A stretch of DNA of 25,739 nucleotides from a virus (lineage: Duplodnaviria > Heunggongvirae > Uroviricota > Caudoviricetes), in IMG/VR virus record IMGVR_UViG_2675903417_000004; one strand, written 5' to 3'. The stretch's first letter is position 1. Each line of letters begins with the position of its first letter. Shown one piece after another: positions 1-8,975 of the stretch. The position numbers were made by a program, and so were the translations under genes. The notes below the pieces were generated by a model. The model ran no database searches. It saw only the letters and a program-made list of their open reading frames with translations, and was not told the origin of the DNA.

Positions 1-64
1 AGTACCAGCGTACGGCCCACAGAATGATGTCACGCTGAAAATGCCGGCCTTTGAATGGGTTCAT
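1..64 (-). CDS. tnpA: IS26 transposase, N-terminal fragment (continues beyond window start)
   Basis: rc of 1-64 encodes MNPFKGRHFQRDIILWAVRWY..., the known N-terminus of Tnp26. Confidence 0.85.
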   Translation of the reverse strand, partial: MNPFKGRHFQRDIILWAVRWY

Positions 65-127
65 GTGCAGCTCCATCAGCAAAAGGGGATGATAAGTTTA
101 TCACCACCGACTATTTGCAACAGTGCC
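1..127 (-). mobile_element. IS26 (IS6 family), partial copy at window edge; terminal inverted repeat at 114-127, transposase reading leftward out of window
   Basis: Sequence 114-127 TTTGCAACAGTGCC is the reverse complement of the IS26 terminal IR GGCACTGTTGCAAA; positions 1-113 match the IS26 left end including the tnpA start (rc ATG at 62-64). Recognised from memory of IS26, not searched. Confidence 0.9.
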
Positions 128-3517: not shown

Positions 3518-5245
3518 TTACTCAGAGTCACCGGCATCAATCGTGTCGCCGCTAATGAAGTTAAGCCCGCCTTTTTTGGCCATTGTCAGCGTTACACGAG
3601 TGAAGTAATCAGCGCCGTTGCGTGGGTGCATATCGTTGATAGCCGAACCCCACAGCGTGGTACGGTTGACCAGCGCCGGAGTGGTCGGATGCTGGAACGG
3701 GATGGCCGGGACAGCATCACCAGTCACGAAGCCTGCTTTACCCGGATTTTCATCACGGACGTAGCACAGCACATCCATCGAGCTGAACTGAATGTTCTCT
3801 GTCGTTAAGTTCTTACAAATACCAGCAGGTACTTCGTACACTTTCACGTTACCGAACAGGGTACCGATGTAGTGAACATACGGAGTCTGGATATAGTCTT
3901 CGGCTGGCTGGAAGAAATCCTTCGGCAACTGTTTGAAGAAAGATGCTGCATCAGCACCAGCAAACATCCCCATCGCACCAGAAGATTTAACGCGCTCAAT
4001 AATGTCGCGATATACAGTCTGGAATTTGCCACGAATGATGGTTGCCCATACATCAAAGGACTGGTTAACCGGCAGAGCGATGTCAAAGGTGTCGGTCGCA
4101 AGAGTACGCCAGATCATGATGCGAAGACGCAGCATATCCTGTTCATGAGACAGGTATTCCTTCAGGGTGCGGAACTGTAGGGAACCCAGGTCCAGACCAA
4201 ATTCACGCTGTGCTTCATACGCCGCCTGTACCGTGTGCTCAGCCGCGATAACGAACTGGCTTGGGAACAGGGTGTATTTCTTCATTTCGTGGTTGATCAG
4301 CGGGATCAGCTCAGGAGCGGCTTCAATATTGATTTCCGTCTCAATTGCGATCTCAGTGCCTTTATCCGGCGCTTTGGAGAACGACAGGGCAATCTGACCA
4401 ATGTTGTAGTTCAGAGAGCAGGTAACAGTGATTTGCTCACCAGCAGCATTAGTAAACGAGTGAAGTAGGCTGCCGGAACCGTTATCAACAACAGACTTAA
4501 TACGGTTAACGTAGATATTAGTGCGACCTTTTCGGATTGGTACATTCTGGCCTTCGAAGTCTTCCATCTTGAAGGTTGCGGTTTTGCTGGTGCCATCGGA
4601 GCTTGCCACCAGCACATAGCGGCGGCGTAACTGGCTGTACACACCGACGGATTGCATGTCCAGAACATCACCAGCAGCATAAGAACCAAAAGAGGAACCT
4701 GCCACGTTAAAGACTTCATAGATGTCGGACTGGTCACGCGTAACCGGAATGAAGGTACACGCATCAGCGGTAGCTGCCCCCAACTGAACAGGCAGGATCA
4801 TCGCGAGGAATAAAGGCAGACGCATAACACCGTCAGAAACGCTCATCATCTCTGCTGCGACGGATTCCAGCATCGCTTTATTAGTGGCATCCATGCTATT
4901 GCGGGTGGACTCAATCAGGCAGTTTTCCAGCGTCTGGTGGCAGGAGGCCAGAATTTCCGGACGCGGCATAGATTTATGTGCTGCGGCGTAGTCAGCCAGT
5001 GCACTTGCCCACGCTGTAGCGATTTGAGCGGTGGCATTATCAGAGATACCCGCAAAAACCGGGTCTTTACGTGCAGCTTCAAGGATAGATGCGGCACGCG
5101 CGGCATCATCTTTAATGAATTGGTTATCAGTACCGAACTGCGCAGTGCTTGCCCAGCCAAGCACAGCTTTAGAGCGTTTTGCGATATCTGCAATACGATT
5201 CTGGTATTCGCGTAAGTTACTCAATTTACTCTTCCTTAAACACAA
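3518..5245 (-). CDS. putative major head protein precursor (575 aa by longest ORF; TTG start at 5245, alternative TTG at 5224 with a better Shine-Dalgarno)
   Basis: About 63 kDa ORF immediately downstream of parS, as recalled for P1 gene 23 (62 kDa precursor); no ATG near the 5' end, so the start is uncertain. Confidence 0.4.
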   Translation of the reverse strand: MCLRKSKLSNLREYQNRIADIAKRSKAVLGWASTAQFGTDNQFIKDDAARAASILEAARKDPVFAGISDNATAQIATAWASALADYAAAHKSMPRPEILASCHQTLENCLIESTRNSMDATNKAMLESVAAEMMSVSDGVMRLPLFLAMILPVQLGAATADACTFIPVTRDQSDIYEVFNVAGSSFGSYAAGDVLDMQSVGVYSQLRRRYVLVASSDGTSKTATFKMEDFEGQNVPIRKGRTNIYVNRIKSVVDNGSGSLLHSFTNAAGEQITVTCSLNYNIGQIALSFSKAPDKGTEIAIETEINIEAAPELIPLINHEMKKYTLFPSQFVIAAEHTVQAAYEAQREFGLDLGSLQFRTLKEYLSHEQDMLRLRIMIWRTLATDTFDIALPVNQSFDVWATIIRGKFQTVYRDIIERVKSSGAMGMFAGADAASFFKQLPKDFFQPAEDYIQTPYVHYIGTLFGNVKVYEVPAGICKNLTTENIQFSSMDVLCYVRDENPGKAGFVTGDAVPAIPFQHPTTPALVNRTTLWGSAINDMHPRNGADYFTRVTLTMAKKGGLNFISGDTIDAGDSE

Positions 5246-5275
5246 GGCACTTGTGTGAATCCCTTTTCGGAAGAG

Positions 5276-5302
5276 ATTTTATTGAAAGTCACTTGTTGAC
5301 TT
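5276..5302 (-). promoter_or_regulatory. candidate P1-type late promoter for the head/tail operon: -10 TAAAAT (rc of 5276-5281) with an AAGTGACTT element 4 nt upstream
   Basis: Same arrangement (9-mer containing TGACT, 4 nt, TAAAAT, about 30 nt to the start codon) recurs at 24899-24917 upstream of the baseplate cluster. Confidence 0.35.
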
Positions 5303-5395
5303 TCTCGCTAAAAGTAATTTTTTAAATTTTTTGTGCGGGGGAGGGGGGCAAGTAAAACAGGCGTGAAATCGTGGGAATTTCAGTCTGAAATTTTC
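5295..5395 (-). promoter_or_regulatory. parS: parS-like partition site downstream of parB
   Basis: Heptamers of ATTTCAC/ATTTCAA type (GTGAAAT 5362-5368, AATTTCA 5376-5382, TGAAATT 5386-5392) and hexamers TCGCTA (5305-5310) and TCGTGG (5369-5374) flanking an AT-rich centre; resembles P1 parS boxA/boxB layout with variant boxB. Confidence 0.5.
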
Positions 5396-5490
5396 CATGA
5401 ATATCTATATATATCATATATTTATACATGAAATAGGCGCGGGACATTTTAGACAGGGGAGGGGGCTAAAGCCGCCTCCCACCAGCGGGA

Positions 5491-6456
5491 TTATTCCCCA
5501 GCAGACATTTTCCCAATGATTTTTTTTATTGCTTCGTCAATTTCAGTTTGCACTTCAGACGGGAGTCTGGAGAACTCGTAGGCGACAACCCGTTTTTTCG
5601 GATCGGACTTCTTTCGGGCATATTGGCGACGGTCAGAGAAGTCTCGCAGCTTCTCAACCACCACAGATTTAACCGGCGCGGGCTTCAGGCTTTTGCTTTC
5701 CGCTTTGAAGATAGCCAGTATCTTCGCTTTATCCTCTTTCGCGCCCTCAGTCTCTGCAATTCGTTCGCGCACCGTATCAACCAGCTCTTCAATCGGCACG
5801 CTTTTAGCGTTAGCATCCTCGGCGATCTGGAGCAGTAACTGGTAATCTGGAAGGGCGAGATCGCTGGCTACGGGGAAGACAGCAATCATCTCATCCGGCA
5901 CCGCGGCAGCCTGGAAAGCTCGCGTCACTTTTGCCTTTGAGATGTTCTCAGCTCGGGCGATCTCTTCTTTGGTCATATTCTTACCGTACATAACCTCGAA
6001 GCGTTTACCCAGCTCGCGCAGAGTGTGTTCGCGGGCTGTCTGGATATCAATGGCCAGCTGGCGGGCATCCGCCAGGCTGATCTCATCTTTCGTCACCAGA
6101 ATCTCAAATTTCGTTTCATTGAAGATACACGCAGCGCGGCGACGCGATCCGTCCAATACCTCAATGCGCTCCCCAACCATACGACCGATAGCCGGGAAGA
6201 ACTGTTGCAATTTAATGGTGCGGGAAATATCGCTTACCGACTCAGGGGTGAGCAGAGACTGATCGCGGCCGTTAACTGCCGGGTCAACGAACGTGCGCGA
6301 CTCAATCTCACCACTCAGCACGACGGTAAGCAAGAATTTAGCCTGGCGGCCAGATTTTAGGGTAAAGGTTTTGGTGCCTTCACTGCCTTCAAGCATGCGA
6401 GCAAACTCGGAGCTATTCTTGCCCAGCACTCGTCCACGGGAAACTATTTTTTTCAT
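5491..6456 (-). CDS. parB: ParB partition protein (P1 family, 321 aa)
   Basis: Motifs GRDQ..LTP, ILDGSRRRA, AKVTRA and YEF..RL shared with P1 ParB; start overlaps the parA stop (ATGA). Confidence 0.9.
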   Translation of the reverse strand: MKKIVSRGRVLGKNSSEFARMLEGSEGTKTFTLKSGRQAKFLLTVVLSGEIESRTFVDPAVNGRDQSLLTPESVSDISRTIKLQQFFPAIGRMVGERIEVLDGSRRRAACIFNETKFEILVTKDEISLADARQLAIDIQTAREHTLRELGKRFEVMYGKNMTKEEIARAENISKAKVTRAFQAAAVPDEMIAVFPVASDLALPDYQLLLQIAEDANAKSVPIEELVDTVRERIAETEGAKEDKAKILAIFKAESKSLKPAPVKSVVVEKLRDFSDRRQYARKKSDPKKRVVAYEFSRLPSEVQTEIDEAIKKIIGKMSAGE

Positions 6457-7664
6457 GCCGCCTCACCCCTAACAAACTCAATTCGATCAAACACAGCCTT
6501 AGTGAAACGCTCGGCCTCGGTTCGTGCCTTCTTCAGCGCCTCTGCACTGCCTGGATACGATTGCGGGTTGGCACTGATTACGGTGTCGAAAGACTCGCCG
6601 CATCGCTCAAAGCCATCCAGACGAGGCAGAGAAGAGTCCAGAATGTTGCTGGCGTAAACCTCACGCGCAAGGCTGTGTGATGTCTCATGATCGCGCTTGC
6701 CGGTCATCTTCGACATAAAACCAATGCTGGCGCTTAAACGCGGTTCTACGCCTTCCTCCTCCAGTTGCTCCAGCATTTCTGGCAGACGGGTGAGATATTT
6801 CAGTGTTGAGTGGAAGTCAACCTGGGCTGGTGGGGTAGGGGTAAGCAGCAAATCGCTGGCCGCCAGACCGTTGAGCAGGAACGGATCCAGGTGTGGACCG
6901 GTATCAATAAAGATAAAGTCATAATCATCCGCAACACGATCAATGATATTGCGTCGAAGGATTTCGTACTGATTTTGTCCGGGAAGATGCTCTTCAACCA
7001 GCTCTTTCCATTGGCTGGCAACAAAGCCATCGTCGATAGAGGCTGGAATCACGTCTACGCCAGGAACGATGGTCGGACGAATCACCTCTTTGCGTAGCGT
7101 CTCCGCGTCCAGGTCGTTCAGCATCGCCTGCGCGGCGGTTTCCAGGATGGAACCAATACTGTGAGTATGGTCGAGGAACATTGTGCTGGATGCCTGAGGG
7201 TCAAGGTCAATTACCAGAATGCGCAGATCGTGACGCAGTAAATCCTGATGCACACGCAGAGCGTGCGCCAACGTGACTGTGGAAACCGTTTTGGATACGC
7301 CACCCTTCAGGTTTACGACAAAAATAACGTAAGGCGATTTGTGAATGTCGCGATATTTGGGGATCTTACGGTGGGCATAGATATCAATGACGTTCTGGAT
7401 GGTCAGCGCGTACTGTTCAACGTTACCGACCTGTTTCTTGTTGAACTGGTACCCATCATCTTCCATCTCTTTGATGGCCTGCTCCACAATGCGGCGGCTC
7501 AGCTTCGGCAACTTTGCCACAGCGTTACGAGTGAACGTCTGATAATACTCGGTCTGATTGAACTCTTTGCGCTGATCTTCAATATCCTGACTCATGGCCT
7601 TAAGTAATGCGCTTGCACGAAGAGCTATGGTGCCGACACCGCCGTAATCGCGTTTCATCATCAT
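6453..7664 (-). CDS. parA: ParA partition ATPase (type Ia, 403 aa; three consecutive ATGs at 7664/7661/7658)
   Basis: Walker A NLKGGVSKT, LDPQ, and the C-terminal LPRLDGFERCGESFDTVISANP...AKAVFDRIEF block closely resembling P1 ParA. Confidence 0.9.
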   Translation of the reverse strand: MMMKRDYGGVGTIALRASALLKAMSQDIEDQRKEFNQTEYYQTFTRNAVAKLPKLSRRIVEQAIKEMEDDGYQFNKKQVGNVEQYALTIQNVIDIYAHRKIPKYRDIHKSPYVIFVVNLKGGVSKTVSTVTLAHALRVHQDLLRHDLRILVIDLDPQASSTMFLDHTHSIGSILETAAQAMLNDLDAETLRKEVIRPTIVPGVDVIPASIDDGFVASQWKELVEEHLPGQNQYEILRRNIIDRVADDYDFIFIDTGPHLDPFLLNGLAASDLLLTPTPPAQVDFHSTLKYLTRLPEMLEQLEEEGVEPRLSASIGFMSKMTGKRDHETSHSLAREVYASNILDSSLPRLDGFERCGESFDTVISANPQSYPGSAEALKKARTEAERFTKAVFDRIEFVRGEAA

Positions 7665-7708
7665 CTCCTTATCATTTCGTATGAGTGAATTGTACGTTTG
7701 ATTCTGCT

Positions 7709-7749
7709 ACGTGCAACTTTTTTTGATTCGTGCGTCAATTATTGCACGT
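7709..7749. promoter_or_regulatory. candidate par operator: 8-bp perfect inverted repeat ACGTGCAA / TTGCACGT
   Basis: Arms at 7709-7716 and 7742-7749, 45-85 nt upstream of parA. Confidence 0.4.
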
Positions 7750-7773
7750 AAAGAAATGGCGATGAGGCTATTA

Positions 7774-8060
7774 GATGTGTGCTGGAGGGATGATGCAGGA
7801 CCAGAATGTGCGATAGAGGGAAGTCGCATTGAATTATGTGTTGTGGAGGGATCGCTTGTATCAAATATGTGTGCTGGAGGGAAAGACAGAGAATTACATG
7901 TGCACTGGAGGGAAAAACGGATGGACAGATGTGTGCTGGAGGGAAAGTCTGAGCAAACTGCGGGGCGTCCCCCTCCAGCGCACATCAAAAACGGGAAATT
8001 GGACAAGCCTTCCCGGCAGCACACATTTTTTGAATGCAGCTGCCCTCCAGCACACACTTA
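7774..8060. repeat. incA-type iteron array: nine 19-bp RepA-binding repeats (six in one orientation, three inverted)
   Basis: GATGTGTGCTGGAGGGA-type repeats starting near 7774, 7806, 7834, 7865, 7898, 7928 and inverted copies near 7968, 8010, 8042. Confidence 0.85.
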
Positions 8061-8918
8061 TTCGGGGAGTTTCAGCTTTGGATTGCGAGAATGGACGATT
8101 ACAAAACTTTCCCGGCCTTTCTTCTCAATTGAACAGTCGAGATAGCCGATTGTTTTAAGCTGTTCTATCGCTTTCTTAATGATACGGTTTTGCTCGCCAA
8201 CAGCTGACTGCAAAGCCAGGCGCTCACGGATTCGGGCGAAAGATAGCGGCAACGGATTCTGCGGAAGGCTTTCGATGAAAGTGTAAATGGCTTGTGCAGC
8301 TTCTTTCTTCGGAAGGGCACGCAAGGCGTGGTGTTGCAACAGAACGCGATAATCAAGCTGGAACAGCTCCCACAGCTTCGAATCAGCCTCCAGCTCTATC
8401 AGATCAAGGTCAGCATCAAAACGACCGACCTTTAGCAGACCAGTCTGATAGCCGCCTTTAGCATCTTTTCCGCGCTTAAAAGCGATACCCTTGTTACGTA
8501 AGCGTCCAAGTGATTCATGAATGGTTAAACGCAGTTTCGCATCCAGACGTTTTGAGGGGAAACCACAGGCTTTAGCGAATTCCTGAAACGATAACTGGAT
8601 GGTGTTCGAGGACAAGCCGTATTTGCTGAACGCGTAGATGACACCGATCCACGTTTTGAAATCAGTATCCATATCGAGTCGAGGACCGGTGATTTTAATA
8701 TCATCGTAACCCTCGGCTTTAGCTATCTCCAGCTGGGAAAACGCTTTGGTGGCATCAATCTCTTTACTTTCTCCTTTGCTCTTTGATGGCTTCGGCACGA
8801 ATACCCCCAAGCGCATCAACGCTACAGGCTGCACAGTGTTGTTTGAATTAACTGTTAGTTCTTTTGCCTTACTTTCAATGTCTGCGTAAAGAATATCGGA
8901 TATAAATGATTGATTCAT
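8058..8918 (-). CDS. repA: RepA plasmid replication initiator (286 aa)
   Basis: Flanked by iteron arrays on both sides; sequence MNQSFISDILYADIESKAKELTVNSNN... matches P1 RepA as I remember it. Confidence 0.95.
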   Translation of the reverse strand: MNQSFISDILYADIESKAKELTVNSNNTVQPVALMRLGVFVPKPSKSKGESKEIDATKAFSQLEIAKAEGYDDIKITGPRLDMDTDFKTWIGVIYAFSKYGLSSNTIQLSFQEFAKACGFPSKRLDAKLRLTIHESLGRLRNKGIAFKRGKDAKGGYQTGLLKVGRFDADLDLIELEADSKLWELFQLDYRVLLQHHALRALPKKEAAQAIYTFIESLPQNPLPLSFARIRERLALQSAVGEQNRIIKKAIEQLKTIGYLDCSIEKKGRESFVIVHSRNPKLKLPE

Positions 8919-8975
8919 ATTACTTTTTCCGAATTGTGTAGATAGTTTTTATAAGTGGTGATAACTACCCAGGCT

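What the first reader, a model, noticed from the sequence alone, without database searches (positions are those of the whole stretch)
5295..5395. P1-type par locus with variant parS boxes and a divergent ParB
The ParA/ParB pair is clearly of the P1 family, but ParB appears substantially diverged from the P1 sequence as I recall it, and the putative boxB hexamers (TCGCTA, TCGTGG) differ from P1 TCGCCA. In this family boxB and a ParB discriminator region set partition incompatibility, so the locus may represent a distinct specificity group. RepA and its iterons look essentially P1-like, which would make the replicon a mosaic.
Basis: partly seen in the sequence, partly recalled or inferred. Interest (0 to 1): 0.45.

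Follow-up and report, generated by a model that had tools for sequence, protein, structure and literature searches.

The report
Phage P7-type plasmid partition locus
This is the well-known partition (parA-parB-parS) system of phage-plasmid P7 sitting next to the replication module it shares with P1, so it is ordinary and already described rather than a new specificity type.

Summary
The window is a piece of a P1/P7-like phage-plasmid. The par locus lies on the minus strand: parA at 6453-7664, parB at 5491-6456 and parS at 5363-5445.

ParA is 403/403 identical to phage P7 ParA. ParB is 319/321 identical to P7 ParB and only 43% identical to P1 ParB. RepA is 286/286 identical to both P1 and P7.

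parS matches the annotated P7 parS at 79 of 83 bases and has the same layout: boxB1, boxA1, IHF site, boxA2, boxA3, boxB2, boxA4. Both boxB hexamers are exactly those of P7 (GTCCCG and TTCCCA). P1 has TCGCCA.

- TCGTGG (+5369-5374) is the opposite-strand reading of CCA-CG-A, which spans boxB2 and boxA4. The same string also occurs in P1 parS.
- TCGCTA (+5305-5310) lies about 53 nt outside parS, beside the late promoter LP23.

The locus does belong to a different specificity group from P1. That group is P7's, which has been characterised for decades, and P7 ParA has a solved structure (3ez9). Identical parB-parS DNA occurs in dozens of IncY plasmids, and close copies (at least 90% identity) are in 211 of 5426 complete E. 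coli genomes.

Already known; low interest.

The parts
5363..5445 (-). parS centromere-like site (incB determinant), P7 type. Layout: boxB1, boxA1, IHF site, boxA2, boxA3, boxB2, boxA4.
   Evidence: 79/83 identical to the annotated P7 parS and 50/83 to P1 parS.
5440..5445 (-). boxB1, GTCCCG
   Evidence: 6/6 identical to the P7 annotated boxB(1). P1 has TCGCCA.
5428..5434 (-). boxA1, ATTTCAT
   Evidence: 7/7 identical to P7 boxA(1).
5412..5424 (-). IHF binding site, TAAATATATGATA
   Evidence: 13/13 identical to the IHF site annotated in P7.
5385..5391 (-). boxA2, ATTTCAG
   Evidence: 7/7 identical to P7.
5377..5383 (-). boxA3, CTGAAAT (inverted relative to boxA2)
   Evidence: 7/7 identical to P7.
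5372..5377 (-). boxB2, TTCCCA, the specificity-determining hexamer
   Evidence: 6/6 identical to P7 boxB(2). It differs from P1 TCGCCA at positions 2 and 3.
5363..5369 (-). boxA4, ATTTCAC
   Evidence: 6/7 to the P7 reference (GTTTCAC) and identical to P1 boxA4. The same version is in OP279344 and in many plasmids.
5491..6456 (-). parB, 321 aa centromere-binding protein, P7 type
   Evidence: 319/321 to P7 ParB (differences N160S and A212S) and 43% to P1 ParB. Pfam PF08775 ParB, E 4e-33. Aligns to the P1 ParB structures 1zx4/2ntz.
6453..7664 (-). parA, 403 aa type Ia partition ATPase with an N-terminal HTH, P7 type. It overlaps parB by 4 nt.
   Evidence: 403/403 to P7 ParA and 58% to P1 ParA. 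PDB 3ez9/3ezf, E 1e-266 over the full length. Pfam HTH_54 and AAA_31.
7708..7750 (.). Perfect 9-bp inverted repeat TACGTGCAA/TTGCACGTA, 25 nt apart, 44-86 nt upstream of parA. Candidate par operator/promoter region.
   Evidence: It lies inside the block that diverges from P1. The operator function is inferred, not shown, and no sigma-70 consensus hit was found.
7774..8058 (-). incA iteron array (nine RepA-binding iterons)
   Evidence: 277/285 identical to the P7 annotated incA. Part of the block that is 97% identical to P1.
8058..8918 (-). repA, IncY replication initiator
   Evidence: 286/286 aa identical to both P1 and P7 RepA.
8975..9216 (-). oriR / incC (five iterons, Dam sites, DnaA box)
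   Evidence: 235/242 identical to the P7 annotated oriR. The DnaA box is 15/15.

Best explanation
This is the phage P7-type member of the P1par (type Ia ParABS) family of plasmid partition systems. It is carried by a P1/P7-like phage-plasmid next to the IncY replicon (repA, incA, incC/oriR) that P1 and P7 share.

Mechanism, taken from established knowledge of P1/P7 par and inferred for this copy:
1. ParB dimers bind parS. Their HTH domains read the boxA heptamers and their C-terminal dimer domain reads the boxB hexamers.
2. IHF bends the AT-rich spacer so that one ParB complex holds both arms.
3. The ParB-parS complex stimulates nucleoid-bound ParA-ATP, and the resulting ParA gradient moves sister plasmids apart.
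4. ParA in its ADP form represses the operon through its N-terminal HTH at an operator upstream of parA.

Specificity, and therefore partition incompatibility (incB), is set by boxB positions 2-3. These read TC here and in P7, and CG in P1. The matching ParB C-terminal discriminator is identical to P7's here. The element should therefore be partition-incompatible with P7 but not with P1, and replicon-incompatible (IncY) with both.
For: - The whole 4.1 kb rep-par region is 98.4% identical to P7 AF503408 and 99.4% identical to OP279344.
- ParA is 403/403 and ParB 319/321 identical to P7. RepA is 286/286 identical to both P7 and P1.
- parS matches the annotated P7 parS at 79/83. All seven boxes and the IHF site are in register, and both boxB hexamers are identical.
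- The ParB C-terminus (residues 213-321) is 100% identical to P7. The residue aligned with P1 D288 is R277.
- ParA matches the 403-residue ParA chain of 3ez9/3ezf at E 1e-266.
- Pfam finds the ParB family domain in ParB, and HTH_54 plus AAA_31 in ParA.
- Of the 23 nt differences from P7 in parB, only 2 change an amino acid, so the gene is under purifying selection.
- Identical parB-parS DNA is in at least 25 PLSDB plasmids. The three 94-97% variants fetched are typed IncY.
- Copies at 90% identity or more are in 236 plasmids and in 211 of 5426 complete E. coli genomes.
- A published survey already lists 'parAB 99.8% P7 (minimal similarity to P1)' in a P1-like plasmid (PMC6906374).
- The role of boxB and of the P1 ParB aspartate in specificity is stated in PMC10999674.
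Against: - Nothing in the sequence argues against it.
- Function is inferred from near-identity and was not tested here.
- There are four substitutions in parS relative to the P7 reference. One is in boxA4 (G to A, giving the P1-like consensus ATTTCAC), one is in the A2/A3 spacer, and two are in the spacer between the IHF site and boxA2.
- There are two conservative ParB substitutions, N160 and A212.
- No sigma-70 consensus promoter was picked up upstream of parA by the simple scan.
Confidence: 0.96

Rival explanations
1. The locus is a new partition-specificity group, distinct from both P1 and P7. Variant boxB hexamers and a diverged ParB discriminator would make it compatible with both.
For: - ParB is only 43% identical to P1 ParB.
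- parS has 4 substitutions relative to the P7 reference.
- ParB has 2 substitutions relative to the P7 reference.
Against: - Both boxB hexamers are identical to P7.
- The ParB C-terminal region that reads boxB is 100% identical to P7.
- None of the four parS substitutions is in a boxB, and the one in boxA4 restores the family consensus.
- More distant P7-type variants, at 94-97% identity, also keep TTCCCA.
Confidence: 0.02
2. The locus is a decaying or non-functional par remnant carried passively by a phage-plasmid.
For: - The simple scans found no consensus sigma-70 promoter and no canonical terminator in 5200-8100.
Against: - Both ORFs are intact and full length, with the 4-nt parA/parB overlap kept.
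- 21 of the 23 nucleotide differences from P7 in parB are synonymous.
- All the parS boxes are intact.
- The same DNA is maintained at 100% identity in many independent low-copy plasmids of roughly 93-116 kb (one record is 454 kb).
Confidence: 0.02

Closest known systems
Phage P7 par (parA-parB-parS; GenBank AF503408 / NC_050152)
   Same: - ParA 403/403 and ParB 319/321 identical.
- parS 79/83 identical, with the same box order and the same boxB1 (GTCCCG) and boxB2 (TTCCCA).
- Same 4-nt parA/parB overlap.
- Same flanking genes: repA/incA upstream, and LP23 with the capsid gene 23 downstream.
   Different: - Two ParB substitutions, N160 versus S and A212 versus S.
- boxA4 is ATTTCAC instead of GTTTCAC.
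- Three spacer substitutions in parS.
- parB differs from P7 at 23 nt, while parA differs at only 2 nt.
Phage P1 par (NC_005856), the family prototype
   Same: - Same gene order and the same parS architecture (BA, IHF site, AABA).
- The same boxA consensus ATTTCA(N).
- Identical RepA and near-identical iterons.
- The DNA flanking the par block is 96-97% identical.
   Different: - ParB is 43% and ParA 58% identical.
- boxB is TCGCCA in P1, against GTCCCG/TTCCCA here.
- P1 D288 aligns with R277 here.
- The block 5395-7770 is diverged from P1.
- The left arm of parS and a GC-rich hairpin after parB are not alignable with P1.
Other P1par-family ParB proteins on enterobacterial plasmids (clusters at about 69%, 62% and 42-46% identity; VirB of Shigella as a regulatory offshoot)
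   Same: Homologous ParB over nearly the full length. More than 5000 plasmid records match.
   Different: There is a clear identity gap. The P7 cluster is at 95% or more (231 records), and the next large cluster is at about 69% (only 4 records lie at 80-95%). The window's protein sits inside the P7 cluster.

Membership tests
P1par family (type Ia ParABS) | ParA is a Walker-type ATPase with an N-terminal HTH extension (type Ia). | tested here: met
   Pfam HTH_54 (E 4e-37) and AAA_31 (E 8e-24). Full-length matches to the P7 and P1 ParA structures 3ez9 and 3ez2.
P1par family (type Ia ParABS) | ParB has a central HTH and a C-terminal dimer domain of the P1 ParB type. | tested here: met
   Pfam PF08775 ParB family, E 4e-33, over residues 194-314. 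Residues 137-316 align to P1 ParB(142-333) in 1zx4/2ntz.
P1par family (type Ia ParABS) | parS lies directly downstream of parB, with boxA heptamers and boxB hexamers in two arms (BA and AABA) around an IHF site. | tested here: met
   All seven boxes and the IHF site are in register with the P7 and P1 annotations. Four ATTTCA hexamers fall in 83 bp against 0.097 expected.
P1par family (type Ia ParABS) | An autoregulated operon with a ParA-bound operator overlapping the promoter upstream of parA. | tested here: inconclusive
   A perfect 9-bp inverted repeat lies at 7708-7716 and 7742-7750. The simple scan gave no sigma-70 consensus match. Binding was not tested.
P7 partition-specificity group | boxB hexamers of the P7 type, with TC at positions 2-3: boxB2 TTCCCA and boxB1 GTCCCG. 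| tested here: met
   6/6 and 6/6 identical to the P7 annotated boxes.
P7 partition-specificity group | ParB C-terminal discriminator region identical to that of P7. | tested here: met
   Residues 213-321 are 100% identical to P7 ParB, and 319/321 overall. R277 occupies the position of P1 D288.
P7 partition-specificity group | Exerts partition incompatibility against P7par plasmids and not against P1par plasmids. | not testable with these tools
   Needs an in vivo incompatibility assay.
P1 partition-specificity group | boxB is TCGCCA, with a P1-type ParB discriminator (D288). | tested here: not met
   boxB is GTCCCG/TTCCCA. ParB is 43% identical to P1, with R at the aligned position.
IncY replicon (P1/P7 RepA-iteron) | RepA initiator with the incA and incC iteron arrays and oriR. 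| tested here: met
   RepA is 286/286 to P1 and P7. incA is 277/285 and oriR/incC 235/242 to P7. The three 94-97% P7-type parB-parS variants that were fetched are typed IncY.

The most novel reading that the evidence does not exclude
The few differences from the P7 reference might shift binding strength or partial cross-reactivity enough to give a sub-specificity within the P7 group. These differences are boxA4 restored to the P1-like ATTTCAC, the A2/A3 spacer G to A change, and ParB N160 and A212. The resumption of P1-like sequence inside parS, between the IHF site and boxA2, might mark a recombination hotspot through which par cassettes are swapped among P1-like phage-plasmids.
Probability: 0.03. 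Interest if true: 0.3.

Novelty: already known. Interest (0 to 1): 0.05.

Why it matters
It matters little beyond correct annotation. The element should be labelled as carrying the P7-type par (incB of P7) with the shared IncY replicon. That predicts replicon incompatibility with both P1 and P7, and partition incompatibility with P7-type plasmids only. The P1/P7 pair is the textbook case of how two bases in boxB and one ParB residue set centromere specificity, and this window is one more natural copy of the P7 allele.

Tried and rejected
1. TCGTGG is an opposite-strand string spanning boxB2, the spacer and boxA4, and it is also present in P1. TCGCTA lies outside parS, beside LP23.
2. I asked whether the 94-97% P7-type variants in plasmids carry a different boxB, which would hint at subgroups. 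All three that I sampled keep boxB2 TTCCCA. Only the IHF spacer, boxA4 and one base of boxB1 vary.
3. I tried to read the primary papers: Radnedge 1998 (PMC1170934) and Dabrazhynetskaya 2005/2009 (PMC1196149, PMC2632008). None is held. I relied instead on the P7 and P1 GenBank annotations and on PMC10999674 and PMC6906374.
4. One literature search was too broad and returned nothing useful.
5. NCBIfam equivalog models for SopA/SopB-type proteins matched only below their cut-offs. This is uninformative for the P1par subfamily.

Full report
**What is in the window.** The whole 25.7 kb window is a segment of a P1/P7-like phage-plasmid (Punavirus). Bases 128-25000 match OP279344 (a record labelled 'Escherichia phage P1') at 98.5% over 95% of the query. 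They match phage P7 (AF503408) at 97.8% over 94%, and P1 (NC_005856) at 97.7% over 85%.

The replication and partition genes are on the minus strand:
- repA at 8058-8918
- parA at 6453-7664
- parB at 5491-6456
- the centromere site downstream of parB

**Checking the observation.** The 4.1 kb stretch 5200-9300 is 98.4% identical to P7 along its full length. Only 42% of it aligns to P1 at megablast level.

| Protein | vs P7 | vs P1 |
|---|---|---|
| ParB | 319/321 (N160 vs S, A212 vs S) | 129/301 (43%) |
| ParA | 403/403 | 58% |
| RepA | 286/286 | 286/286 |

**The real parS.** The P7 genome record annotates parS box by box, and so does the P1 record. I aligned the window to P7 and mapped each feature across. 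On the minus strand the boxes are:

| Feature | Sequence | Window coordinates |
|---|---|---|
| boxB1 | GTCCCG | 5440-5445 |
| boxA1 | ATTTCAT | 5428-5434 |
| IHF site | TAAATATATGATA | 5412-5424 |
| boxA2 | ATTTCAG | 5385-5391 |
| boxA3 | CTGAAAT | 5377-5383 |
| boxB2 | TTCCCA | 5372-5377 |
| boxA4 | ATTTCAC | 5363-5369 |

- The 83-bp site is 79/83 identical to P7 parS and 50/83 identical to P1 parS.
- Both boxB hexamers are exactly those of P7. P1 has TCGCCA at both positions.
- The four differences from P7 are at 5403, 5395, 5384 and 5369. Only the last is in a box. It changes P7's GTTTCAC to ATTTCAC, which is the P1 and consensus form of boxA4.
- The site is not a chance cluster. Four ATTTCA hexamers fall in 83 bp against 0.097 expected, and no other 83-bp stretch in the window has as many.

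Neither is a boxB.
- TCGTGG is at +5369-5374. Its reverse complement CCACGA is the last three bases of boxB2, the CG spacer and the first base of boxA4. The same TCGTGG string is present on the opposite strand of P1 parS, so it is a conserved string and not a variant.
- TCGCTA is at +5305-5310, about 53 nt past boxA4 and just upstream of the -22 box of the late promoter LP23. LP23 maps to window 5276-5294 and is 19/19 identical to P7.

**The mosaic.** Relative to P1, identity varies along the region as follows:
- 97% from 9800 down to 7771 (oriR, repA, incA)
- a drop across 7770-5395, with only about 65% in the core of parA and nothing alignable at the ends
- back to 96.6% from 5394 onward

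The diverged block holds the par promoter region, parA, parB and the left arm of parS. P7 has the same arrangement and the same RepA. The mosaic is therefore the known P1/P7 relationship and not a new recombinant.

**Specificity.**
- According to PMC10999674, the boxB sequences are the discriminatory elements. BoxB2 is the one essential for specific incompatibility. An aspartate of P1 ParB recognises the second base of boxB2.
- From my own knowledge of Dabrazhynetskaya et al. 2009, whose reference I saw but could not read, that residue is D288.
- In the alignment, P1 D288 aligns with R277 of the window's ParB.
- The whole C-terminal part (residues 213-321) is identical to P7.
- The boxB2 second and third bases are TC, as in P7, and not CG as in P1.
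- Both halves of the specificity pair are therefore P7 alleles.

**Family evidence independent of P7 and P1 DNA.**
- ParA carries Pfam HTH_54 and AAA_31. ParB carries the Pfam ParB family domain.
- ParA matches the 403-residue ParA chain of PDB 3ez9/3ezf at E 1e-266 and the P1 ParA structures at E 1e-156.
- ParB aligns to the P1 ParB(142-333) structures 1zx4/2ntz.
- parB differs from P7 at 23 of 966 nucleotides but at only 2 amino acids. The gene is maintained by selection.

**How common it is.**
- The 1131-bp parB-parS stretch is 100% identical in at least 25 PLSDB plasmids of E. coli and Salmonella. Most are 93-116 kb.
- It is present at 90% identity or more in 236 plasmids and in 211 of 5426 complete E. 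coli genomes.
- A sub-cluster at about 95% identity is the most frequent (131 plasmids).
- Three sampled variants at 94-97% identity are all typed IncY. They keep boxB2 TTCCCA and differ mainly in the IHF spacer. Their ParB proteins are 98-99% identical to the window's.
- At protein level the P7 cluster (95% or more, 231 records) is separated by a gap from the next clusters at about 69% and 62%, and from the P1-like level of about 43%.
- Venturini et al. 2019 (PMC6906374) already report a P1-like plasmid with 'parAB 99.8% P7 (minimal similarity to P1)'.

**Mechanism.** This is inferred from near-identity to the studied systems.
1. ParB dimers bind boxA through the HTH and boxB through the C-terminal dimer domain.
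2. IHF bends the spacer so that both arms are held together.
3. The complex activates nucleoid-bound ParA-ATP and is carried apart from its sister.
4. ParA-ADP represses the operon. A perfect 9-bp inverted repeat (7708-7716 and 7742-7750) upstream of parA is a candidate operator, but the simple promoter scan found no consensus site.

**Verdict.** The locus is the P7-type par system next to the IncY replicon. Interest is low.

Noticed in passing
window 15899-17353: This stretch does not match P7, which has terB, upf69.4 and upf69.6 here. Instead it carries a 275-aa SPFH/Band 7 protein gene (16508-17335, Pfam PF01145, E 1e-30). The stretch is 100% identical in other P1-like elements (MH422554, MH445380) and 99.7% identical in RCS47. 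It is a swappable accessory cassette between the tRNA genes and ban.
   Followed up: partly
window 17363-17438: ARAGORN calls a tRNA with anticodon CAT as tRNA-Met. The P7 record annotates the gene at the corresponding place as tRNA-Ile. This is probably a lysidine-dependent Ile2-type tRNA rather than Met. tRNA-Asn and tRNA-Thr lie at 15405-15558.
   Followed up: no
window 5457-5480 (minus strand): A GC-rich hairpin, GGGAGGCGGC-TTTA-GCCCCCTCCC, starts 11 nt after the parB stop codon. The 61-nt stretch folds at -24.7 kcal/mol with z = -1.97. It is present in P7-type loci and absent from P1, where parS follows parB almost directly. It has no T-run, so it is not a classical terminator. C-rich tracts (CCCCTCCCC) flank parS on both sides.
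   Followed up: partly
window 5491-7664: Divergence from the P7 reference is uneven. parA differs at 2 of 1212 nt, while the adjacent parB differs at 23 of 966 nt, 21 of them synonymous. This suggests a recombination patch from another P7-type lineage within parB.
   Followed up: no
PLSDB loci L005, L007 (plasmids pYLPD7b, pRHBSTW-00312_2): The most frequent P7-type parB-parS lineage (about 95% identity, 131 of 236 plasmids) has a largely different IHF-spacer sequence and a boxA4 reading ATTTAAC or GTTTAAC. It keeps boxB2 TTCCCA. L007 has boxB1 GCCCCG.
   Followed up: partly
window 1-127 and 25613-25739: Both ends of the window fall outside the megablast match to P7. The left end diverges inside the homologue of P7 upf52.7.
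   Followed up: no
window 7708-7750: A perfect 9-bp inverted repeat, TACGTGCAA/TTGCACGTA, with a 25-nt spacer lies upstream of parA. It is a likely ParA operator of the P7-type operon, in the block that is not alignable with P1.
   Followed up: partly
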